This document shows, one piece after another, positions 2,880 through 10,732 of a stretch of DNA of 64,000 nucleotides. A program made the translations under genes and the position numbers. A model generated the notes under the pieces. It saw only the letters and a program-made list of their open reading frames with translations, made no database searches and was not told the DNA's origin. Numbering within the stretch: position 1 is the first letter of the stretch; every line of letters begins with the position of its first letter. This stretch comes from Bacteroidia bacterium (GTDB taxonomy: Bacteria > Bacteroidota > Bacteroidia > NS11-12g > UBA9320). The DNA is taken from assembly GCA_965216465.1 (NCBI GenBank), contig CBDCFW010000001.1:160001-224000 (forward strand). The letters run 5' to 3'.

Positions 2880-4241
2880 ATGGCAAGAATATTAATTGTA
2901 GACGACGAAGAAAGTATCAGAGAAACGCTAAAAGAAATTTTAGACTACGAGGGATACGAAATTGAAGAAGCTCCAGATGGAGAGAAGGCTCTATCGCTAA
3001 TTAAGAAATTTAATTACGATGCTGTTTTGGCTGACATCAAAATGCCTAAGCTTGATGGACTCGAATTGCTTGAAAAAGCAAAAGAAGTAGCACCTGAACT
3101 TCCATTTATTATGATCTCTGGTCATGGTACCATGGAAACAGCGGTAGAAGCAACTAAAAAAGGAGCATTTGACTTTATTAGTAAACCTCCAGATTTAAAT
3201 AAGCTCTTAATCACCGTTCGTAACGCAGTAGATAAAAACAACTTAGTTATTGAGACTAAGGTGTTAAAGCGTAAGATTACCAAAACCCGTCCAATTATTG
3301 GAGATGCTCCAAGCATCAAAAAAATAAAGCAGACCATCGAGAAGGTAGCTCCTACTGATGCGCGTGTAATGATTACTGGAGAAAACGGTACAGGTAAGGA
3401 ACTTGTAGCACGTTGGATTCACGAAAAAAGTAACCGCTCAGACAAGCCTATTATCGAAGTTAACTGTGCCGCGATTCCATCAGAACTTATTGAAAGTGAG
3501 CTTTTTGGACATGAAAAAGGTTCATTTACTTCTGCAGTTAAGCAGAAGCTGGGTAAGTTTGAAAAAGCGAATGGCGGAACGCTCTTCTTAGATGAGATTG
3601 GAGACATGAGTCTTTCTGCTCAAGCCAAAGTTTTGAGAGCGTTACAAGAGAATAAAATTACGCGTGTTGGTGGTGAGAAGGACATTAATGTAGATGTTCG
3701 TGTTATCGCTGCGACCAATAAAGATTTGATGCACGAAATTCAAGAAGGTAACTTCAGAGAAGACCTCTACCATAGAATTTCGGTGATTGTAATTCACGTT
3801 CCTACGTTAAATGAAAGAGTATCTGATATTCCAACGCTTGCAGAAAAATTTATGGAAGAAATCTGTCAAGACAATGGAATAAATAAAAAGCAGATTACTG
3901 CTGGAGCAATGGATGCTCTGAAAAACATTTACTGGAGTGGTAATATTCGCGAGTTGCGTAACATTATTGAACGATTGATCATCTTATGCGACCAGAAAAT
4001 TACAGAGGAAGATGTTCAGTTATATGCCAACAACGGTAAAAAGAAACCAGGTACAATTGATGCTATCAATGAGTTTTCTCGTTTCCAAGACTTCAAAGAC
4101 TATGCTGAGAAAATGTTTATCGATGCCAAATTGAAGAAGAACAATTGGAACGTAGCTAAGACCGCTGCAGAAATCGACATTCAAAGAAGTCACTTGTACA
4201 ATAAGATTGATAAGTTTAGTCTTAAGCGTGACAAAAAATGA
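2880..4241 (+). CDS. Sigma-54-dependent response regulator (NtrC/NtrX family; REC-AAA+-Fis HTH)
   Basis: ILIVDDE receiver, GENGTGKE Walker A, ESELFGHEKGSFTSA, LFLDEIGD, C-terminal HTH. True start is ATG 2880; the track start lies inside rnpB. Confidence 0.92.
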   Translation: MARILIVDDEESIRETLKEILDYEGYEIEEAPDGEKALSLIKKFNYDAVLADIKMPKLDGLELLEKAKEVAPELPFIMISGHGTMETAVEATKKGAFDFISKPPDLNKLLITVRNAVDKNNLVIETKVLKRKITKTRPIIGDAPSIKKIKQTIEKVAPTDARVMITGENGTGKELVARWIHEKSNRSDKPIIEVNCAAIPSELIESELFGHEKGSFTSAVKQKLGKFEKANGGTLFLDEIGDMSLSAQAKVLRALQENKITRVGGEKDINVDVRVIAATNKDLMHEIQEGNFREDLYHRISVIVIHVPTLNERVSDIPTLAEKFMEEICQDNGINKKQITAGAMDALKNIYWSGNIRELRNIIERLIILCDQKITEEDVQLYANNGKKKPGTIDAINEFSRFQDFKDYAEKMFIDAKLKKNNWNVAKTAAEIDIQRSHLYNKIDKFSLKRDKK

Positions 4242-5185
4242 TAGGCACGGATGTGTCTGTTGCAGCTAAGCTTTTGCAAAAAGGTGAAGTTGTAGCCATT
4301 CCCACCGAAACAGTTTATGGTTTAGGGGCAAATGCTCTAGACCCAAGCGCTGTCACTAAGATTTATCAAACCAAGGAACGTCCTTCGTTCAATCCATTAA
4401 TTCTTCATCTTCCAAATTTAGAAGCAGCAAGGCCTTATATTCAGGATGTTCATCCTATGGCTCAACAATTGGCTGACCGATTTTGGCCAGGCAGCTTGAG
4501 CTTGCTATTTCCAAAAACAGACATGGTTCCTGATATTGTTACTGCTGGATTGCCCAATGTGGTTATACGCGTCCCAAATCATGAATTAACGTTGCAATTA
4601 TTGCAGGAAGTAAAATTTCCGGTCGCAGCACCAAGTGCCAATATATCGAATACCGTTAGTCCAACTTCCGCAGAGCGGGTTCAACAGAACTTAGGTGATA
4701 AGATAGAGTACATTTTAGATGGCGGACCATGTACGGTTGGAGTGGAAAGTACAATCGTTTCCTTTGTTGATGATGAAGTTACGATTTTGCGTGAAGGAGG
4801 AATTAGCAAGGAAGAAATCGAAGCGGAGTTAGGAATTTCGGTATCGTATAAGAAGGCAAAAGAGGTTACTGCACCGGGCCAGCTTAAACGTCACTATGCG
4901 ACTCGAAAGCCGCTTTATGTTGTTGACGACATCGAAGAGGCCATGCTCAGCTTTAGGGATAAGAAGGTTTCGGCCATGTTGTTTGAAACCAAGCAGATTA
5001 AAGCCAATAAGGTATACCTCCTCTCCCACAACTACAATCTATCGGAAATAGCCATCAATTTATTTGAGATGATGAATAAGGCAGACGAAGACAATAGTGA
5101 AATCATCTTAGTAGAACGTATCAAAGAAGAGGGAATTGGAAAGGCTATCGCAGATCGTTTAAGAAGGGCGAGCACTGAGCTCTAA
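4238..5185 (+). CDS. tsaC: L-threonylcarbamoyladenylate synthase (Sua5/TsaC)
   Basis: PTETVYGLGA, KERPSFNPLI, APSAN, GVESTI, APGQ..HYA Sua5 linker. Confidence 0.93.
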   Translation: MIGTDVSVAAKLLQKGEVVAIPTETVYGLGANALDPSAVTKIYQTKERPSFNPLILHLPNLEAARPYIQDVHPMAQQLADRFWPGSLSLLFPKTDMVPDIVTAGLPNVVIRVPNHELTLQLLQEVKFPVAAPSANISNTVSPTSAERVQQNLGDKIEYILDGGPCTVGVESTIVSFVDDEVTILREGGISKEEIEAELGISVSYKKAKEVTAPGQLKRHYATRKPLYVVDDIEEAMLSFRDKKVSAMLFETKQIKANKVYLLSHNYNLSEIAINLFEMMNKADEDNSEIILVERIKEEGIGKAIADRLRRASTEL

Positions 5186-5256
5186 CACACTCTAAACTCA
5201 AACTCTTGCTCAAAACTCTTGCTCAAAACTCTTGCTCACACTCAAACCTTAACCCC
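5186..5256. repeat. Degenerate hexamer / 13-mer tandem repeat (CAAAACTCTTGCT x~3)
   Basis: CAAACTCTTGCT CAAAACTCTTGCT CAAAACTCTTGCT CACACTCAAAC read directly after the tsaC stop. Confidence 0.85.
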
Positions 5257-5397
5257 CTAAATATTCCAAATCAGAATTTCATCTGACTCGTTGTAGGAGT
5301 CTTCTGTAGAGGAGTAGTCGTCTGGATTGATGATTTTCATCATGCAAGTGCTTTCAGGATTTTCTGTAGCTTGCTTTATGAGTTCGTAGTATGACAT
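5257..5397 (-). CDS. 46-aa acidic small protein (MSYYELIKQATENPESTCMMKIINPDDYSSTEDSYNESDEILIWNI)
   Basis: ATG-to-TAG ORF below the track cutoff, with a canonical TAGCTTTG -7 element ~21 nt upstream. Confidence 0.6.
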   Translation of the reverse strand: MSYYELIKQATENPESTCMMKIINPDDYSSTEDSYNESDEILIWNI

Positions 5398-5418
5398 AGT
5401 GAATTAAAATCGTTGCTT

Positions 5419-5426
5419 CAAAGCTA
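5419..5426 (-). promoter_or_regulatory. -7 promoter element TAGCTTTG for the small ORF 5257-5397
   Basis: Exact TAnnTTTG on the minus strand. Confidence 0.6.
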
Positions 5427-5562
5427 GCGAGTTATGAAATGAACTTATACATCATTTTCTACACATAATGTGTATAGAATTGGATAGCGGACGGTTTGAT
5501 GAAGTCTTCTTACTTCGTCGTAATGCCTTAATCAACCAATTTAAGCTCTCTCGAAAAGGACA

Positions 5563-5597
5563 TAGAGTTGAGTGTGAGCAAGAGAGTGAGAGTACGA
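5563..5597. repeat. GA-rich hexamer repeat; contains a 17-bp perfect inverted copy of 5229-5245
   Basis: TTGAGTGTGAGCAAGAG (5568-5584) is the reverse complement of CTCTTGCTCACACTCAA (5229-5245). Confidence 0.8.
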
Positions 5598-5607
5598 ATT
5601 CTACCTA

Positions 5608-5635
5608 TTCAAGGTCTCTTGGAGAGGACCTTGAA
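5608..5635. repeat. REP-like palindrome
   Basis: TTCAAGGTC-TCTTGGAGAG-GACCTTGAA, 9-bp perfect stem with no U-tract. Confidence 0.5.
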
Positions 5636-5719
5636 GAGTCAAATGCCTACTTATTAAACCTACATGGTAAAATCATTCACCAACCTTTGCTATATTCGAT
5701 TCCTGAACTTCTTTAATAA

Positions 5720-5905
5720 ATGGAAAACCTCTACTTCATCTTCAAAGAAACCACTGCAATATTCATTATTTGGGTAGTTGCAGAGCTTATTTTCATGTAC
5801 AAGGACATTGCTCCAAAACAACGATGGAGGTACCGAACTTGGGTACTGGCTAGTGCAGTTTTTATTGGAGTTGCTGTTTATTTGGTTTGGAGGTCGAATT
5901 TCTAG
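5720..5905 (+). CDS. Small two-TM membrane protein, unknown function
   Basis: 61-aa ORF with two hydrophobic segments and a basic loop; A-rich context before ATG. Confidence 0.55.
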   Translation: MENLYFIFKETTAIFIIWVVAELIFMYKDIAPKQRWRYRTWVLASAVFIGVAVYLVWRSNF

Positions 5906-5960
5906 GTACCAAGTAATTAAGATCCCTAATGTAGACCTTTGATTAGGATTTCGTTGCATC

Positions 5961-6227
5961 CTAGTAACTCAACAGTATTCCGCAAATGGTGAAAACACCA
6001 AAAGCAACCCAAAACAAGATTGAAAGAAATCTCACATGCTTAGGTTGTATGGCTAAATTTAAAGGATTTAATGCGTACCATTTTGAATAGTGAGTTTTCA
6101 TTAAAAAACCTTCATCCTTAAAATCACTTCTATACAAATAGATATAATGCAAAATATATTTGAGAGCAAACGCACCAAAAGCAGTTAGTCCAGAGTAAAA
6201 TGATATGTCATATATTAAGGGTTGCAT
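5961..6227 (-). CDS. Small two-TM membrane protein, unknown function
   Basis: ORF with two hydrophobic helices; ATG 6227 preferred over the track TTG 6266. Confidence 0.55.
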   Translation of the reverse strand: MQPLIYDISFYSGLTAFGAFALKYILHYIYLYRSDFKDEGFLMKTHYSKWYALNPLNLAIQPKHVRFLSILFWVAFGVFTICGILLSY

Positions 6228-6330
6228 CGAATTTTCAATAGAGCAATTATTCACCAAAATAAACAATTTGAATTGAAACCAGCATAGTGCACCTTAAATG
6301 AGCTGAATCAAACAAGTGTACCAATATTTG

Positions 6331-6392
6331 CAGTCAGTGGGAGATTGAGGGCGAATGCAGATGATTCTACCTGCACTTCGCATTATAAGTTG
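6331..6392 (-). repeat. Structured repeat E4 (degenerate copy)
   Basis: Plus strand CAGTCAGTGGGAGATTGAGGGCGAATGCAGAT-GATTCT-ACCTGCACTTCGC; homologous to E1-E3. Confidence 0.85.
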
Positions 6393-6400
6393 TTTACTAT

Positions 6401-7534
6401 TTATCTAAACTGATCTCTAATTGCAGCAATTGATTTCCCAGAGTTTGAGATTATAAGATACCTTACATCAGACACTATTCTTTTAAACTCCTCGTCATCT
6501 GACAACTCATTTACCGAATCCAAAAAGTCAATTAACTCTATTTCTATGTCTTCTTGATAAAGTATCTGACTATTGTCTTCACTTAAATACTTCTTCAGAA
6601 TGGGAATCGCAATCTTGCTGAGTTCTACTGCTTTCATTCCATTTCTCACACTCAGTCCTTCCTCTTTTATTATTGAGCTCAAATAGTAGTAGTCATTAAT
6701 ATACGACTTGCCAAGTTCAGAAGTTGACAATTCTGCTCTGATATCATAGAAAGTAGACTTGTCAATAATCTTCCCTGACACTTTTTCAGCCTCATTAATG
6801 CCACAAGTTCTTCCATAGCAATCAAAAGTCCCATCTCCATTCGACATGCAGTTCATATCCGGTGCCTCAAAACAAGGGTATTGACAGCCTTCTTTGTCCT
6901 TCTTAGGCTTGTCTGGAACATCAGGAGCTTTTTTAGACTTTAAGTAATTAGCACCTAAAACTTGGTGCAGAAAAACTGCATGATCAGGGACTTCAAATTC
7001 ATAATTACTCCGCAATGAAACTGCAGAAAAGAAGCGTTGATCTAAGTCCATTTGTCTCGCGAAAACTACAAAATCGTTAGTTGAGATTGCGTCAACCTCG
7101 ATTGACTTAAATCGATATGAAAGCTCGTTGCAATCAAATCCATCAACATACAGTCTCCCTTCTTTCAGATAAAAATACAATGCAGCTCTACTGGAATCCA
7201 GATTTAATTTCTCGCTTTTATCAAGTCGATTATTGAAGTATAAGACAATTGAGATTGGAATATTCTCGTCATTCTTCTGTATAAGATTGAACAAGTCCAT
7301 CTTTTGAATAATTGAATCTTGTCCAGTATAGTGAAATGCTAGATGAAAATTATTGTTAGTGTTGCTCTTGTTTGCATAGTACACTTGAAAGGAAATGGCA
7401 GCGAGATCATCACCAAAAAGTGCTGCTTGTTTATCAGGTGAAAACGTGTCGCAAGAAGCACATGTCAATCGATTACTATCCTTACAACTGAAAAGGAGAA
7501 AAAGGGCTAAAAATGCTAATGTTATTTTTTTCAT
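6401..7534 (-). CDS. Hypothetical lipoprotein with a Cys-rich segment and a CFI-box-CTERM-like helical tail
   Basis: Lipobox LFSC; CxxC; CQYPC...C...C...C cluster followed by FYDIRAELSTSELGKSYINDYYYLS. Confidence 0.7.
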   Translation of the reverse strand: MKKITLAFLALFLLFSCKDSNRLTCASCDTFSPDKQAALFGDDLAAISFQVYYANKSNTNNNFHLAFHYTGQDSIIQKMDLFNLIQKNDENIPISIVLYFNNRLDKSEKLNLDSSRAALYFYLKEGRLYVDGFDCNELSYRFKSIEVDAISTNDFVVFARQMDLDQRFFSAVSLRSNYEFEVPDHAVFLHQVLGANYLKSKKAPDVPDKPKKDKEGCQYPCFEAPDMNCMSNGDGTFDCYGRTCGINEAEKVSGKIIDKSTFYDIRAELSTSELGKSYINDYYYLSSIIKEEGLSVRNGMKAVELSKIAIPILKKYLSEDNSQILYQEDIEIELIDFLDSVNELSDDEEFKRIVSDVRYLIISNSGKSIAAIRDQFR

Positions 7535-7598
7535 GTCTTCAAAATGAAAACAACAAGCTCACACATATTGTAGAAATTCTACTACTTCATTAGTTGTT

Positions 7599-7652
7599 TT
7601 AATAAAAATCTTTAACTCCCTTATATACTCTAAGCTTTTCAAAATCAAACAT
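7599..7652 (-). pseudogene. Truncated third four-helix-bundle copy (MFDFEKLRVYKGVKDFY*)
   Basis: Same leader and first codons as the intact copies; TAA after 17 codons. Confidence 0.85.
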
Positions 7653-7667
7653 GTATATCAAAATTCA

Positions 7668-7728
7668 CAGTCAGTGCGAGAATGAGGGCGAATGCAGGTA
7701 GAAGCACCCGTGCTTCACACTCTAACTG
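7668..7728 (-). repeat. Structured repeat E3
   Basis: CAGTCAGTGCGAGAATGAGGGCGA-ATGCAGGTAGAAGCACCCGTGC-TTCACACTCTAACTG. Confidence 0.92.
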
Positions 7729-7732
7729 CATT

Positions 7733-8080
7733 CTACTTCTCCAACTTCCGTATTAGAGCATATAACATCTTAGACAGCTCTTCTGCTTTCTGATAGAGTG
7801 TAGAGTACTCTTTTATATTGAGTTTTGATTTATCTTTAAGTATGTCGCAAATAGCAACACATTCAAATACTGAACTTCTAGAAATAACATAGAAATTTCT
7901 TTTATCACGATTCGTAAATCGTCCTGTACCTTCAGCTATGTTTAAAGCGATACTAAGTGAAGCCCGCTTGAGCTGATTGGTAATTACTGAATCTGGTTTA
8001 CAGTTGTCTAATAGTTTCTCAATTTCAAAATGAAATTCTTTTGCTCGCTTATAGACTGTAAGTTTTTCAAAATCAAACAT
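7733..8080 (-). CDS. Four-helix-bundle protein (23S rRNA IVP / TIGR02436 family), copy 2
   Basis: FEKLxVY, QLKRASLSIALNIAEGTGR, SRSSVFEC, EELSKMLYALI family motifs. Confidence 0.93.
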   Translation of the reverse strand: MFDFEKLTVYKRAKEFHFEIEKLLDNCKPDSVITNQLKRASLSIALNIAEGTGRFTNRDKRNFYVISRSSVFECVAICDILKDKSKLNIKEYSTLYQKAEELSKMLYALIRKLEK

Positions 8081-8095
8081 GCATATCAAAATTCA

Positions 8096-8156
8096 CAGCC
8101 AGTGCGAGAATGAGGGCGAATACGGGTAGAATCACCCGCGCTTCACACTCTAACTG
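8096..8156 (-). repeat. Structured repeat E2
   Basis: CAGCCAGTGCGAGAATGAGGGCGA-ATACGGGTAGAATCACCCGCGC-TTCACACTCTAACTG; 428 bp from E3. Confidence 0.92.
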
Positions 8157-8157
8157 T

Positions 8158-8508
8158 TTACTTCTTCTCCAACTTCCGTATTAGAGCATATAACATCTTA
8201 GACAGCTCTTCTGCTTTCTGATAGAGTGTAGAGTACTCTTTTATATTGAGTTTTGATTTATCTTTAAGTATATCACAAATAGCAACACATTCAAATACTG
8301 AACTTCTAGAAATAACATAGAAATTTCTTTTATCACGATTCGTAAATCGTCCTGTACCTTCAGCTATATTTAAAGCGATACTAAGTGAAGCCCGCTTGAG
8401 CTGATTGGTAATTACTGAATCTGGTTTACAGTTGTCTAATAGTTTCTCAATTTCAAAATGAAATTCTTTTGCACGCCTATAGACTGAAAGCTTTTCAAAA
8501 TCAAACAT
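8158..8508 (-). CDS. Four-helix-bundle protein (23S rRNA IVP / TIGR02436 family), copy 1
   Basis: Same motifs as copy 2; about 8 nt differences counted by eye. Confidence 0.93.
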   Translation of the reverse strand: MFDFEKLSVYRRAKEFHFEIEKLLDNCKPDSVITNQLKRASLSIALNIAEGTGRFTNRDKRNFYVISRSSVFECVAICDILKDKSKLNIKEYSTLYQKAEELSKMLYALIRKLEKK

Positions 8509-8523
8509 GCATATCAAAATTCA

Positions 8524-8584
8524 CAGTCAGTGCGAGAATGAGGGCGAGTGTGAGTAAGAACACTCACACTTCACACTCTAACTG
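8524..8584 (-). repeat. Structured repeat E1
   Basis: CAGTCAGTGCGAGAATGAGGGCGA-GTGTGAGTAAGAACACTCACAC-TTCACACTCTAACTG; 428 bp from E2. Confidence 0.92.
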
Positions 8585-8587
8585 TTA

Positions 8588-8607
8588 TGGTACCCAGGGT
8601 CGGGCTC
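8588..8607 (-). repeat. Duplicated tRNA-Leu 3' end (att-like), ending in CCA
   Basis: GTACCCAGGGTCGGGCTC (8590-8607) is identical to 8703-8720; the minus strand reads GAGCCCGACCCTGGGTACCA. Confidence 0.9.
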
Positions 8608-8666
8608 CCCAACGTTGCAGTTGGGATAAACTTCTCGCCCGACTTTAGAATTCAAATTTTCGCCAT

Positions 8667-8696
8667 AAAAAAAGCTGACCTAGAAGATCAGCTTTT
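8667..8696 (-). terminator. Rho-independent terminator after tRNA-Leu
   Basis: Minus strand AAAAGCTGATC-TTCTA-GGTCAGC followed by T7. Confidence 0.75.
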
Positions 8697-8703
8697 CATT
8701 TTG

Positions 8704-8785
8704 TACCCAGGGTCGGGCTCGAACCGACACGTCTTGCGACATTGGTGTTTGAGACCAACGCGTCTACCAATTCCGCCACCTGGGC
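8704..8785 (-). tRNA. tRNA-Leu(CAA)
   Basis: GCCCAGG acceptor, GGCGGAATTGGTAGACGC D arm, TTGGT-CTCAAAC-ACCAA anticodon arm, long variable arm, GTCGGTTCGAGCCCGAC T arm; CCA not encoded. Confidence 0.97.
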
Positions 8786-8864
8786 ATGAAAGGACGTTTA
8801 CGTCCTTGAGCATACAGACCTAAGCGTCTGCACCGATTCAAGACCTACAACCAGGTTTCTCAAA

Positions 8865-9392
8865 TCAGGCTGCGAATGTATTTAGACTTTCTCTTATTCG
8901 CAACACATACTTTAACTTTAAGTATGTTTCTTTAACTTTTTCTAAAATTTCTTTTCGAGCTTCACTTCCAACTTCCAACTTATCAGCCTCTCCCGCCCTA
9001 TTCGCTAACTCCAAATTCAATTCTTCTTCCAACTGCCTTACCTCCATCAATACTTCATCTTGCTTCGCAGCATCAGGATCCATTTTTAAATCCATAATAT
9101 CCTCATTGATGTCCATCATCTCCATTAAAAAGCTTTGCGGAATAGCATTCTGTGCCTCTTGAAGCACCTCATTAAGTTTTAGAATGTAATTCACTCTCGA
9201 GCTGAACTTGCTTAACGCCTTGAATGCCGAATTATTGGTACTCGTCGTTTCTAAAGCCTGCTCATACTTCGCTTCATCATCAATAACAAAATCAGGGTGA
9301 TGCTCTTTACTAATCTTAAAGAATAGCTGTTTTAACTCAGCTTCATCCAAGAAGAATTGCTCTTCTATACCATAAAACTGAAAGTAGTTCAT
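8865..9392 (-). CDS. hscB: Fe-S cluster co-chaperone HscB
   Basis: MNYFQFYG, J-domain HPD motif, FLMEMMDINE. Confidence 0.9.
   Translation of the reverse strand: MNYFQFYGIEEQFFLDEAELKQLFFKISKEHHPDFVIDDEAKYEQALETTSTNNSAFKALSKFSSRVNYILKLNEVLQEAQNAIPQSFLMEMMDINEDIMDLKMDPDAAKQDEVLMEVRQLEEELNLELANRAGEADKLEVGSEARKEILEKVKETYLKLKYVLRIRESLNTFAA
8873..8880 (-). promoter_or_regulatory. Probable tRNA promoter (-7 variant TACATTCG) embedded in the last codons of hscB
   Basis: TACATTCGCAGCC has the same TAnnTTCG-CAGCC form seen before rseP (10753-10760) and ffh (26463-26470). Confidence 0.55.
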
Positions 9393-10732
9393 CAACTAAA
9401 AAACGCGTTTAAGCTATCAATAAACAGTATAAAGCCCATTAAAGCAAAAAGTAGAATCATTCCAACGATTTGGAAGTAGTACATTACTTTCTCAGGCAAT
9501 GGCTTTCTTCTAACCATCTCTATCAATAAGAACAATACGTGTCCTCCATCTAAAGCCGGAATAGGTAACAAGTTCATGAAAGCTAAGACAAATGATAGCA
9601 TTCCTGTAATCTGCCAGAATCGATGCCAGTTCCATTCCGCTCCATAAATGGTAGCAATTGTAATCGGCCCGCTTAATGTTTTGGTTGGATTAAGCTTTCC
9701 TTTAATCATCTCACCAAAAGCTCTAATGTTTAAGTTCAAGGTGTTAATTCCTCTCCTGGTTCCTTCTGGGAACGATTCTAAAAAGCCAAACTTCGTGGTA
9801 ATGGTTTTACCTGCAAATTCAGAAACATCATCCATCAATATTCCAACTCTACCATTGGTATCTAGTTTGTGCTTTATCTCAATTGATTCGTTGTCTCTGA
9901 TTATACCTATAGTTACTTCTTCACCTTTGTGATTTTGAAGCTCATCCTTCATGTTATTGTGAAAAGGAGTAGCAACATCATTAACCGATACAATTTGGTC
10001 GCCTTTTTCAAAGCCAGAACTCTTAGCCTCTTCAGTTTGTGCTTCATATACAATAGACTTAATACGCTTGTCGTATAAGCCACGGCCTTTGCTTTCCATA
10101 ACCTTAGGCTTTATACTATCTGCCAGAATGAAGTCACGAATTTGACCATTATTTTCTACGGTATAAGTTAGATCTTCATCTCCTGAAAAGAAAAGTTCAG
10201 GCTTACTAAATTCACGGTATTTTTCAAGCTTCTCACCGTTCAATGCGATAAGTTTATCTCCTTCTTTGAATCCTGCTTGAACTCCTAATTCGGTAGGAAC
10301 AATTCCATTCACATTAGCTACTTCTGTTGGTAACCATGTATCTCCATAGTGCCATAGTGATAAGGCGAAAATTAATATTCCTAAAAAGAAATTAACCGTT
10401 ACCCCACCAATCATAACAATCAAACGCTGCCATGCTGGCTTGCTTCTAAATTCATAATCTTCAGGTTCTGAAGCCATTTGCTCTTTGTCAAGGCTTTCAT
10501 CTATCATTCCTGAAATTTTAACATAGCCTCCAAGTGGCAACCATCCAATACCCCATTCGGTGTCGTTTACCTTCTTGCTGAAAAGCTTTACTCCCCAAGC
10601 ATCGAAGAAGATGTAGAATTTCTCAACACGTATACCAAAAGTACGTGCTGCGATGTAATGCCCCCATTCATGCAACGATACTAAAATAGCTAACGCTAGT
10701 ATCAGTTGCCCTGCCATGATTAATGTTCCCAT
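9392..10732 (-). CDS. rseP: RIP metalloprotease RseP
   Basis: HEWGH, LGGYVKISGM, PDZ domains, NLLPIPALDGGH. Confidence 0.95.
   Translation of the reverse strand: MGTLIMAGQLILALAILVSLHEWGHYIAARTFGIRVEKFYIFFDAWGVKLFSKKVNDTEWGIGWLPLGGYVKISGMIDESLDKEQMASEPEDYEFRSKPAWQRLIVMIGGVTVNFFLGILIFALSLWHYGDTWLPTEVANVNGIVPTELGVQAGFKEGDKLIALNGEKLEKYREFSKPELFFSGDEDLTYTVENNGQIRDFILADSIKPKVMESKGRGLYDKRIKSIVYEAQTEEAKSSGFEKGDQIVSVNDVATPFHNNMKDELQNHKGEEVTIGIIRDNESIEIKHKLDTNGRVGILMDDVSEFAGKTITTKFGFLESFPEGTRRGINTLNLNIRAFGEMIKGKLNPTKTLSGPITIATIYGAEWNWHRFWQITGMLSFVLAFMNLLPIPALDGGHVLFLLIEMVRRKPLPEKVMYYFQIVGMILLFALMGFILFIDSLNAFFS

What the first reader, a model, noticed from the sequence alone, without database searches (positions are those of the whole stretch)
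6305..8607. tRNA-anchored, polar cassette-like array of structured repeats and four-helix-bundle (Avd-like) genes carrying cargo
Seen, reading the minus strand from the tRNA: duplicated tRNA 3' end (CCA) - E1 - intact four-helix-bundle gene - E2 - intact gene - E3 - 17-codon stub - 377-aa lipoprotein - E4 - ~3-codon stub - small membrane gene. Each ~61-nt element begins 1-8 nt after a stop codon or the CCA. Each is followed by a homologous 15-nt spacer and (A/T)TGTTTGATT. Known: TIGR02436/PF05635 proteins are structural relatives of the RNA-binding DGR accessory protein Avd, and some are encoded in excised 23S rRNA intervening sequences; integron attC sites also sit just after cassette stop codons. 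Inference: the hairpin plus gene is a propagating unit, or the hairpin is a recombination/processing site that builds a gene array. No integrase, transposase or RT is visible in the window, so any catalyst would act in trans.
Basis: partly seen in the sequence, partly recalled or inferred. Interest (0 to 1): 0.9.

Follow-up and report, generated by a model that had tools for sequence, protein, structure and literature searches.

The report
tRNA-linked hairpin plus four-helix-bundle gene cassettes
Next to a leucine tRNA gene lies a tandem array of a small cassette, a folded hairpin followed by a gene of the family also found inside ribosomal RNA intervening sequences; related cassettes sit right after tRNA genes in other bacteria, which suggests a relocating gene unit without a known enzyme.

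Summary
Four copies of a ~67-nt hairpin element (E1-E4) lie on the minus strand downstream of tRNA-Leu(CAA). Two are followed by intact PF05635/TIGR02436 four-helix-bundle (4HB) genes and two by 17- and 3-codon stubs. An 18-nt copy of the tRNA 3' end sits just before E1. E occurs nowhere else in this genome and is not detectable by sequence in relatives.

The design, however, recurs. The window's 4HB genes fall in a well-supported clade. Its members in at least five other genera sit just downstream of tRNA or tmRNA genes. A related A-tract/hairpin/U-tract element starts 0-5 nt after the tRNA 3' end there. One genome carries such units at three different tRNAs. At an orthologous tRNA-Glu site, 4 species are filled, 6 hold remnants and 13 are empty. 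In one filled species a 520-nt unit exactly replaces the native terminator.

So hairpin plus gene is a discrete, relocating unit, a free-standing relative of the 23S rRNA intervening-sequence ORF elements. The window array is a 428-bp tandem duplication with distal decay. The integron-like cassette-builder reading is not supported. What E does (terminator-like insulator or processing stem) and how the unit moves remain inferred.

The parts
8703..8785 (-). tRNA-Leu(CAA), intact
   Evidence: ARAGORN; Rfam tRNA 55 bits
8667..8693 (-). hairpin plus T-run directly after the tRNA (its present terminator), inside the 95-nt segment between the two 18-nt repeats
   Evidence: read; the simple terminator scan did not call it
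8588..8643 (-). tRNA-like 3' block: T-stem-like stem enclosing an inner hairpin, then the 18-nt exact copy of the tRNA 3' end (8590-8607) ending in CCA. Read as the old tRNA/E junction displaced by a later insertion
   Evidence: D8; the same block in relative G008 with a covarying inner hairpin; analogy with G397
8520..8586 (-). E1 hairpin element
   Evidence: z -4.35, 0 of 200 shuffles as stable
8158..8508 (-). 4HB gene 1 (116 aa from the ATG at 8508; stop at 8158-8160)
   Evidence: PF05635 6.7e-25; TIGR02436 83.8 bits against cut-off 24; PDB 2gsc E 2.8e-4
8092..8157 (-). E2 hairpin element, starting at the last base of or the first base after the stop codon
7733..8080 (-). 4HB gene 2 (115 aa), 98% identical to gene 1
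7664..7730 (-). E3 hairpin element
7599..7652 (-). 17-codon stub of a third 4HB gene (homology to units 1 and 2 decays after about codon 7)
6401..7534 (-). 377-aa orphan lipoprotein gene (lipobox-like N-terminus)
   Evidence: no family; weak matches in 4 of 190 other genomes of the order
6323..6390 (-). E4, an older and more diverged element copy (60-75% identity)
   Evidence: (nhmmer E 2.7e-20)
6306..6315 (-). remnant of the 4HB start (TTG in place of ATG plus two codons)
5961..6266 (-). small ORF with two hydrophobic stretches (membrane protein candidate), no family
5186..8702 (.). species-specific insert between the tRNA-Leu 3' end and the convergent tsaC gene (4238-5185)
   Evidence: in 5 of 8 same-genus genomes examined the tRNA and the tsaC end are only about 37-145 nt apart

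Best explanation
The locus is a tandem array of a small self-contained gene cassette. Each unit is a structured hairpin (E), a short leader and a 116-codon PF05635/TIGR02436 four-helix-bundle gene. The cassette belongs to a clade of such units whose characteristic position is immediately 3' of a tRNA or tmRNA gene.

Shown:
- The unit is discrete. Between copies at different tRNAs, homology starts at base +1 after the tRNA.
- The unit is present, decayed or absent at orthologous sites.
- In one case it exactly replaces the tRNA's native terminator.
- The window array has a strict 428-bp period, two near-identical intact units nearest the tRNA, and progressively decayed units further away.

Inferred:
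1. The cassette once abutted tRNA-Leu(CAA) directly, as it does in relatives G044 and G081.
2. It was tandemly duplicated by unequal recombination or slippage between E copies, and the distal copies decayed.
3. A later integrase-type event at the tRNA left the 18-nt direct repeat and a 95-nt insert carrying a new terminator. This pushed the old tRNA 3' end, with E1, 113 nt away.
4. E acts at the RNA level as an insulating hairpin. In relatives it has the A-tract/stem/U-tract shape of an intrinsic terminator and ends the tRNA or upstream-cistron transcript. In the window copies the U-tract has shrunk to four, so its efficiency is uncertain.
5. The lipoprotein and membrane genes are resident islet genes lying between decayed units, not captured cassettes.

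How the unit reaches new tRNA genes is unknown. No recombinase or reverse transcriptase travels with it.
For: Array anatomy. Units 1 and 2 differ at 20 of 428 positions.

Clade and tRNA linkage: in the tree, a clade with 100/98 support holds 20 rows, 15 of them within about 1.5 kb of a tRNA or tmRNA. None of the other 30 rows is.

The element starts 0-5 nt after the tRNA 3' end in 7 loci of 5 genomes: Leu-CAA, Phe, Val-TAC, Val-GAC, Glu twice, and Ser. It follows a tRNA 3' fragment in 3 genomes: the window, G008 and G397.

The orthologous rseP-hscB-tRNA-Leu(CAA) site carries 4HB genes in G044 and G081.

G102 holds units at three tRNAs, and the alignment shows homology from base +1 to about the stop codon.

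tRNA-Glu site in one genus: of 23 loci with the tRNA, 4 have a 4HB gene, 6 have remnants and 13 are empty. A 520-nt unit in G108 replaces the 53-nt native terminator of G110 and G086, with both borders exact.

All 9 tRNA-adjacent elements fold into a long hairpin. In the 8 relatives it is flanked by A- and U-runs. Z-scores run from -1.9 to -6.0, and 7 of 9 were matched by at most 1 of 200 shuffles.

G397 repeats the whole architecture: tRNA fragment, E-like array, two 4HB genes and a 5' stub. There a 62.5-kb island with an integrase separates the fragment from the intact tRNA.

No RT is found in the window genome or in 4 of 5 other carriers. No integrase lies beside the units in 4 of those 5.
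Against: - The window's E is unique by sequence. There were 0 further copies in the genome and 0 of 40 relatives by DNA. None of 65 family genomes scored E<0.01 with the covariance model. Scans of two public collections gave only chance-level hits. Its kinship with the E-like elements of other genera therefore rests on position, shape and short shared motifs that I read by eye, not on a statistical alignment.
- The window copies lack a proper U-tract, and the terminator scan called none of them.
- In G397 up to six E-like copies precede a 4HB gene with no promoter-like box. That fits poorly with efficient termination.
- 4HB divergence between the window and G044 (54% identity) resembles that of the neighbouring housekeeping genes (hscB 41%, rseP 56%). 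Long vertical residence with losses could explain much of the patchiness without recent mobility.
- Copies at different tRNAs in G102 are diverged (alignment), so no recent transposition is seen.
- Kin are not independent, so the tRNA-linkage counts overstate the number of independent events.
- Five rows of the clade have no tRNA within the 1.5 kb fetched.
Confidence: 0.55

Rival explanations
1. Ordinary local tandem duplication with decay. On this view a dispensable accessory gene with its own terminator-like hairpin happened to lie beside the tRNA and was duplicated, and the extra copies rotted. Nothing about the unit is mobile or tRNA-directed.
For: The period is a strict 428 bp, with 97.5% identity outside the inner hairpin. 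E is found only here by sequence. 4HB divergence from G044 matches that of the flanking housekeeping genes. No circles or joints appeared in the contigs of 4 runs (low depth, so weak evidence).
Against: It does not explain why homologous units abut seven different tRNA genes, with homology starting at base +1. It does not explain the filled, remnant and empty states at the tRNA-Glu site or the exact replacement of a native terminator. It does not explain why the same architecture (tRNA fragment, E array, two genes, stub) recurs in another family.
Confidence: 0.2
2. IVS-type RNA processing module. On this view E, and the purine-rich and pyrimidine-rich arms of relatives, form double-stranded stems. 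RNase III cuts them, as in 23S rRNA intervening sequences. This releases the 4HB mRNA from the tRNA or operon precursor and leaves the host RNA functional. E is then a processing site rather than a terminator.
For: The Coxiella 23S IVS is a 428-nt element with a PF05635 ORF, a 28-bp terminal stem, heptamer repeats upstream of the ORF and RNase III excision (PMC4990558, passages read). Of 30 4HB genes from the same order, 16 have flanking inverted repeats above the 95th percentile of 600 control genes, 13 are above the 99th and 6 are above the control maximum. In G321 the gene sits between tRNA-Ser and tRNA-Pro, bracketed by complementary arms. Operon-inserted units sit exactly between a stop and a start codon with arms on both sides.
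Against: G.U versus A.C mismatches in the long arms show no strand bias (35 against 32), so there is no signature of selection on the RNA of the gene strand. In the window, E is a local hairpin ahead of the gene, not a bracket around it. No cleavage data exist.
Confidence: 0.2
3. Integron-like or other site-specific cassette system. On this view E is a folded recombination site, used by a recombinase encoded elsewhere, that inserts gene cassettes next to the tRNA. The lipoprotein and membrane genes would be captured cargo.
For: E sits 0-8 nt after stop codons. Its outer arms are conserved while its centre is hypervariable yet still paired: 10 of the 20 differences between units 1 and 2 fall in 23 nt (Fisher p 3e-9). 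The array is polar. These features resemble attC sites. The attC description is recalled and comes from no call.
Against: No tyrosine recombinase lies on contig C1; there are 4 elsewhere, two of them of XerC/D size. By eye, on either strand, E lacks the inverse core pair RYYYAAC...GTTRRRY in the order required of attC (consensus recalled). E and E-like elements flank only 4HB genes or their stubs in every locus examined. The lipoprotein has no E-flanked relative. No joints were seen.
Confidence: 0.05
4. Decayed end of an integrase-borne genomic island that integrated into tRNA-Leu. On this view the 4HB units are merely island cargo.
For: The 18-nt direct repeat runs from the T-loop to the 3' end, which is typical of tRNA att sites (the att description is recalled). 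The tRNA-Leu to tsaC interval is a variable hotspot in the genus.
Against: In G397 the integrase island lies on the other side of the tRNA fragment from the E-4HB array. In G102, G108, G044 and G078 no integrase is near the units. The units abut many different tRNAs and carry no tRNA-derived att segment.
Confidence: 0.05

Closest known systems
23S (and 16S) rRNA intervening sequences that encode a PF05635 'S23p' ORF (Coxiella, Leptospira, CPR bacteria)
   Same: The protein family is the same. The unit size is the same (about 430 nt; the Coxiella IVS is 428 nt). Both lie inside or beside a stable-RNA transcription unit. Both have complementary flanking sequences built of short repeats, a patchy distribution, and ORFs that often decay (PMC4990558 passages; PMC11270868 passages).
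   Different: The unit is not inside an rRNA helix but just after a tRNA gene. In the window the hairpin precedes the gene instead of bracketing it. RNase III excision is untested. Relatives carry an A-tract/hairpin/U-tract form that looks like a terminator.
Integron cassette arrays and attC sites (including integrase-less attC clusters)
   Same: Imperfect palindromes sit just after stop codons. The array is polar, with the freshest units at one end. The arms are conserved and the centre is variable but still paired.
   Different: There is no IntI and no attC core motifs. The repeated gene is always the same family. The cargo is not bracketed elsewhere. The anchor is a tRNA 3' end, not attI.
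DGR accessory protein Avd / bAvd
   Same: Related four-helix-bundle fold family (PMC10053308 passage). A relative of the window protein gave a weak bAvd hit.
   Different: The genome has no reverse transcriptase. No template/variable repeat pair is present. The gene is free-standing.
Rho-independent terminators of tRNA genes
   Same: In 8 relatives the element is an A-tract, a long stem-loop and a U-tract starting at the tRNA 3' end. In G108 it stands where the native terminator stood.
   Different: The element is homologous between different tRNA genes, travels with a gene, and carries purine-rich loops and a pyrimidine-rich tail. The window copies have only four U.
MITE/REP-type small structured repeats and heptamer repeat arrays (for example TAACTGA repeats of Beggiatoaceae, Cyanobacteria and a few Bacteroidetes)
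   Same: Short repeat-built arms, intergenic position close to start codons, and patchy phyletic spread (PMC4679880 passages). One relative (L026) has arms built of that very heptamer.
   Different: The arms differ in sequence from locus to locus. There is no transposase, and target duplications are not seen. That paper does not mention 4HB genes (0 occurrences of the terms searched).

Membership tests
PF05635 / TIGR02436 four-helix-bundle protein | Score above the curated cut-offs of the family models | tested here: met
   PF05635 87.8 and 89.3 bits against cut-off 33.8; TIGR02436 83.8 bits against cut-off 24
PF05635 / TIGR02436 four-helix-bundle protein | Four-helix-bundle fold, pentameric ring | not tested
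   Only a sequence match to PDB 2gsc (E 2.8e-4). No structure was predicted.
rRNA intervening sequence (IVS) | Inserted in a helix of a 16S or 23S rRNA gene | tested here: not met
   Rfam scan of 5500-9500 found only the tRNA. No rRNA was found in 20 related loci.
rRNA intervening sequence (IVS) | Terminal complementary sequences that form a stem around the element | tested here: inconclusive
   The window E is a local hairpin. In a tandem array its arms could equally pair across a gene. In relatives 16 of 30 genes have significant flanking inverted repeats.
rRNA intervening sequence (IVS) | Excision from the precursor by RNase III | not testable with these tools
   No RNA run was listed for this organism.
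Integron / attC cassette array | Integron integrase (IntI) adjacent to or acting on the array | tested here: not met
   PF00589 hits lie only on contigs C4, C5 and C6; none on C1.
Integron / attC cassette array | attC inverse core sites (RYYYAAC ... GTTRRRY; consensus recalled) | tested here: not met
   Read on both strands of E1-E4. GTTAGAG lies at the 5' side and there is no matching partner core at the 3' side. No attC model was available to run.
Integron / attC cassette array | Sites bracket diverse, unrelated cassettes | tested here: not met
   E and E-like elements flank 4HB genes or their stubs only. The one lipoprotein is an orphan.
Diversity-generating retroelement | Reverse transcriptase with a TR/VR repeat pair next to the Avd-like gene | tested here: not met
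   PF00078: 0 matches in a genome that is 100% complete.
tRNA-integrating genomic island | Direct repeat of the tRNA 3' part at the island border | tested here: met
   18-nt exact repeat at 8590-8607 and 8703-8720. However, it bounds only a 95-nt segment.
tRNA-integrating genomic island | Tyrosine integrase within the island | tested here: not met
   In G397 the integrase island is separate from the E-4HB array.
Intrinsic terminator | G+C-rich stem-loop followed directly by a U-run | tested here: inconclusive
   Relatives have hairpins followed by U5-U9. The window copies have GAAUUUUG after the outer stem, and the scan called none. That scan also missed the tRNA's own hairpin.
Known RNA families (Rfam 15) | Match to a curated covariance model | tested here: not met
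   No family matched on E1-E4 at E up to 10. Only tRNA and tmRNA matched in 20 related loci at gathering score.

The most novel reading that the evidence does not exclude
The hairpin+4HB unit would be a new kind of minimal mobile cassette. It would home to the 3' ends of stable-RNA genes (tRNA, tmRNA, and as IVS the rRNA helices) and to stop/start junctions in operons. It would do so without any recombinase or reverse transcriptase of its own, with the RNA-binding-type 4HB protein and the structured ends as its only parts. That would identify the long-sought free-living source of ORF-bearing rRNA intervening sequences and give the PF05635 family a function in its own spread or in processing its host transcripts.
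Probability: 0.25. Interest if true: 0.85.

Novelty: new variant of a known kind. Interest (0 to 1): 0.66.

Why it matters
The PF05635/TIGR02436 family is large and has no known function outside DGRs. In the Coxiella paper's discussion, the origin of the rRNA intervening sequences that encode it is still called unclear more than 25 years after IVSs were first found (PMC4990558 passages).

This work shows that a clade of these genes travels with a structured element, sits exactly at tRNA 3' ends, and shows filled and empty sites. A sister group sits exactly between stop and start codons, flanked by inverted repeats. Together these give concrete and genetically tractable material outside essential rRNA. 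With it one can ask whether these are selfish elements, how they move, and what the protein binds.

It also warns annotators that 'four helix bundle protein' genes scattered in operons (beta-oxidation, mevalonate and capsule here; cas loci in PMC3936711, passages) may be hitch-hikers rather than pathway members.

I found no paper describing tRNA-linked or operon-inserted 4HB units in five full-text searches. Subscription-only papers and supplementary files were not visible and may bear on this.

Tried and rejected
- Rfam scan of the region at E up to 10 gave nothing on E.
- nhmmer of E on the whole genome found only the four copies, plus one hit at E 5.3.
- DNA search of E plus gene in 40 relatives gave 0 matches.
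- Covariance model R1 run on 65 family genomes gave two hits at E 0.28 and 0.44, treated as noise.
- A 24-letter degenerate core pattern was scanned in genome contigs and metagenome contigs. It gave one hit each. One is an intergenic stretch in a Microcoleus contig without a 4HB gene nearby. The other lies inside a high-G+C coding region. By my own estimate about 0.3 chance hits are expected per collection, so both were set aside.
- G.U versus A.C asymmetry in the flanking arms was 35 against 32, so there was no signal.
- RNA duplex energies proved too permissive a measure (control median -34 kcal/mol) and were replaced by a Watson-Crick local alignment score.
- Co-orientation with neighbours was 27 of 38 upstream and 24 of 31 downstream. 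I judged this uninformative without a baseline.
- Sigma-70 promoter and terminator scan: promoters were at the shuffle level and 0 terminators were called.
- A Bacteroidota-type -7/-33 motif (consensus recalled) was searched ahead of 21 units. A paired motif was present in 8, six of them from one genus. The window units have a -7-like box only. The two G397 units have no box at all, so the result is not decisive.
- PADLOC gave no hit for the 4HB, the lipoprotein or the small ORF.
- Public runs: no RNA holder was listed. Contigs of 4 low-depth runs from one study were laid on 5000-9500. They break at the repeats and show no joints, so nothing can be said about circles or copy-number variants.
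- Synteny search with the gene downstream of the G102 tRNA-Glu unit found no orthologous context. The upstream gene worked instead.


Full report
**What is in the window**

Reading the minus strand, the order is:

1. tRNA-Leu(CAA), 8703-8785.
2. A hairpin with a T-run.
3. A tRNA-like block that ends in an exact 18-nt copy of the tRNA 3' end, 8590-8607.
4. Four copies of a ~67-nt element, with start-to-start spacing 428, 428 and 1337 nt.

E1 and E2 are each followed, after a 15-nt leader, by an intact 115/116-codon gene. These genes score 87.8 and 89.3 bits on PF05635 and 83.8 bits on TIGR02436. E3 is followed by a 17-codon stub and then a 377-aa orphan lipoprotein gene. E4 is followed by a 3-codon remnant and then a small ORF with hydrophobic stretches.

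**The element itself**

- On the gene strand, E1-E3 fold into an outer stem enclosing an inner hairpin (-27.2, -27.1 and -25.1 kcal/mol; z -3.5, -2.7, -1.8).
- The opposite strand folds 4-7 kcal/mol worse for E1-E3. E4 is no better than shuffles.
- The consensus fold has 22 pairs, 3 of them with compensatory changes among the four copies.
- Units 1 and 2 differ at 20 of 428 positions. Ten of these lie in the 23-nt inner hairpin (Fisher p 3e-9) and nine of those ten are transitions. Pairing is largely kept.
- I have no tested explanation for this hot spot. It was not seen in the E-like copies of G044 or G102.

**Is E found elsewhere?**

By sequence, it is not:

- Only four copies in the 3.23-Mb genome.
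- 0 of 40 relatives by DNA.
- None of 65 family genomes at E<0.01 with a covariance model.
- No Rfam family.
- One chance-level hit in each of two public collections.

**The locus in relatives**

In 5 of 8 same-genus genomes examined, the order is rseP-hscB-tRNA-Leu(CAA)-terminator, with the convergent tsaC ending 37-145 nt after the tRNA. Three others hold unrelated inserts. Window 5186-8702 is thus a species-specific insert at a variable site.

The closest relative, G008, shares the tRNA-like block, with a covarying inner hairpin. Directly after it comes a hairpin that starts with the same dozen bases as E but carries no 4HB gene.

**The wider pattern**

4HB genes are common in the order: 94 of 190 other genomes at E up to 1e-5. 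A tree of 50 of them shows a clade with 100/98 support. It holds the two window genes and 18 others. Fifteen of these 20 rows lie within about 1.5 kb of a tRNA or tmRNA gene, against 0 of the other 30 rows.

In 7 loci of 5 genomes, a related element begins 0-5 nt after the 3' end of a tRNA:

- tRNA-Leu(CAA)
- tRNA-Phe
- tRNA-Val(TAC)
- tRNA-Val(GAC)
- tRNA-Glu (twice)
- tRNA-Ser

All nine tRNA-adjacent elements, E1 included, fold into a long hairpin. In the eight relatives it is flanked by an A-run and a U-run, with z from -1.9 to -6.0.

G044 and G081 carry 4HB genes at the orthologous hscB-tRNA-Leu(CAA) site. G102 has units at three tRNA genes, and in an alignment homology begins at the first base after the tRNA and ends near the stop codon.

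At the orthologous tRNA-Glu site of one genus, 23 loci have the tRNA. Of these, 4 carry a 4HB gene, 6 carry remnants and 13 are empty. In G108 a 520-nt unit stands exactly where G110 and G086 have a 53-nt terminator.

In a 400-genome sample of the phylum, only 3 further genomes have a close relative. One of them, G397, repeats the window's architecture in another family: tRNA-Leu(TAA) fragment, four E-like copies, 4HB, six E-like copies, 4HB, one E-like copy, and a 5' stub.

**The duplicated tRNA end**

In G397 the intact tRNA-Leu(TAA) lies 62.5 kb upstream of the fragment, and a tyrosine integrase gene abuts the fragment. An integrase island has therefore split the tRNA from its old downstream neighbour, the E-4HB array.

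I read the window the same way. The junction of the tRNA 3' copy with E1 is the ancestral tRNA/E junction. The 95 nt between the repeats, which now supply the tRNA's terminator, are what is left of a later insertion shared with G008. This is inference. The CCA in the copy is one base away from the sequence at the live tRNA and is absent in G008, so I give it no weight.

**A sister group in operons**

The other 4HB clade sits between cistrons: idi2 and HMG-CoA reductase; fadB-like, thiolase and acyl-CoA dehydrogenase; capsule genes.

In the window genome the same junctions are empty, with spacers of 1-80 nt. In filled sites the left arm starts at the host stop codon and the right arm ends at the host start codon. 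The arms are purine-rich on one side and pyrimidine-rich on the other, and complementary to each other. Of 30 genes, 16 exceed the 95th percentile of 600 control genes, 13 exceed the 99th and 6 exceed the control maximum.

This is the design of the ORF-bearing 23S IVS of Coxiella (PMC4990558, passages). There is no G.U over A.C bias in the arms (35 against 32), so RNA-level selection is not shown.

**What it is and how it works**

I conclude that hairpin plus 4HB gene is a discrete unit, related to IVS elements, whose usual home in this clade is the 3' end of a tRNA gene. The window array arose by tandem duplication of that unit, with decay of the distal copies.

For E, I favour an RNA-level insulating role: terminator-like in relatives and weakened in the window. 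The IVS-type RNase III stem is the main alternative. Neither is shown.

No recombinase or reverse transcriptase accompanies the units. How they reach new sites is unknown.

The integron-like reading fails three defining tests: no integrase, no core motifs and no diverse bracketed cassettes.

**Novelty and limits**

Papers I could search describe the following:

- PF05635 ORFs in rRNA insertions (PMC4990558, PMC11270868; passages).
- PF05635 genes between cas genes (PMC3936711; passages).
- PF05635 as Avd relatives (PMC10053308; passage).
- Heptamer repeat arrays, without any link to 4HB genes (PMC4679880; passages).

None describes tRNA-abutting or stop/start-inserted units.

The kinship of the window's E with the E-like elements of other genera rests on position, fold and short shared motifs that I read by eye. 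Counts across related genomes are not independent. No expression data exist.

Noticed in passing
window 8547-8569 (inner hairpin of E1) and the matching parts of E2 and E3: The 23-nt inner hairpin holds 10 of the 20 differences between two otherwise 97.5%-identical 428-nt units. Nine of the ten are transitions and pairing is mostly kept. This is many times faster than the gene's silent sites. The cause is unknown.
   Followed up: partly
window 8588-8643 and L066 2399-2447 (G008): The tRNA-like block ahead of E1 is conserved between two species whose HscB proteins are 64% identical. It has a 20-nt identical stretch and an inner hairpin that differs on both strands yet still pairs. It may be a functional structure rather than a dead att remnant.
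   Followed up: partly
L016 2020-2073, L085 1288-1341, L100 1211-1264, L102 2710-2761, L103 1144-1197, L104 1178-1231, L113 2796-2849: A ~50-nt hairpin lies between the tRNA-Glu terminator and the E-like element in several species of one genus. Eight of its 16 predicted pairs show compensatory changes. Its ends resemble the acceptor strands of tRNA-Glu (my reading). It is not in Rfam at gathering score.
   Followed up: partly
G000:C5:420451-420463; G000:C6:984543-984551 and 985723-985805; L029, L035, L037, L039, L082: 4HB genes with inverted repeat arms sit exactly between the stop and start codons of operon genes (idi2/HMG-CoA reductase; fadB-like/thiolase/acyl-CoA dehydrogenase) in relatives. 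The window genome has the empty junctions.
   Followed up: yes
L090 4565-4774 and 7779-7992 (G044): The last ~55 nt of the 4HB gene plus about 150 nt of tail is repeated 3.2 kb downstream (81-89% identity). The repeat brackets five small genes, including a TehB-like methyltransferase.
   Followed up: no
L090 3179-3742 (G044) and L099 about 1170-1500 and 1846-2330 (G397): E-like elements also occur as gene-less tandem arrays of 4-6 copies right after the tRNA or tRNA fragment.
   Followed up: partly
G397:C1:499296-561887: A 62.5-kb stretch is bounded by an intact tRNA-Leu(TAA) and an exact 24-nt copy of its 3' part, with a tyrosine integrase at the far end. It is a classical tRNA-integrated island.
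   Followed up: partly
G000:C4:84742-84894: A third, very diverged 4HB-like ORF (22.8 bits, below cut-off) is wedged between two genes that I read by eye, without a family search, as a tgt-like gene and a permease gene. It has no spacer on either side.
   Followed up: no
G000:C6:445784-447201: A dense run of at least seven tRNA genes lies within 1.4 kb (Leu, Gln, Pro, Ala, Asn, Trp, Cys).
   Followed up: no
L004 7660-7735 (Microcoleus contig): A 34-nt stretch resembles the 3' arm of E beyond the 24 letters searched. It is intergenic, near a contig end, and has no 4HB gene in the 300 nt that remain. It is probably chance, but cyanobacteria are rich in this gene family (recalled).
   Followed up: partly
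L026 about 1340-1500 and 1870-2010 (G070): The arms around this 4HB gene are built of the heptamer TAACTGA and its complement. This is the repeat described without explanation in Beggiatoaceae, Cyanobacteria and a few Bacteroidetes (PMC4679880 passages).
   Followed up: no
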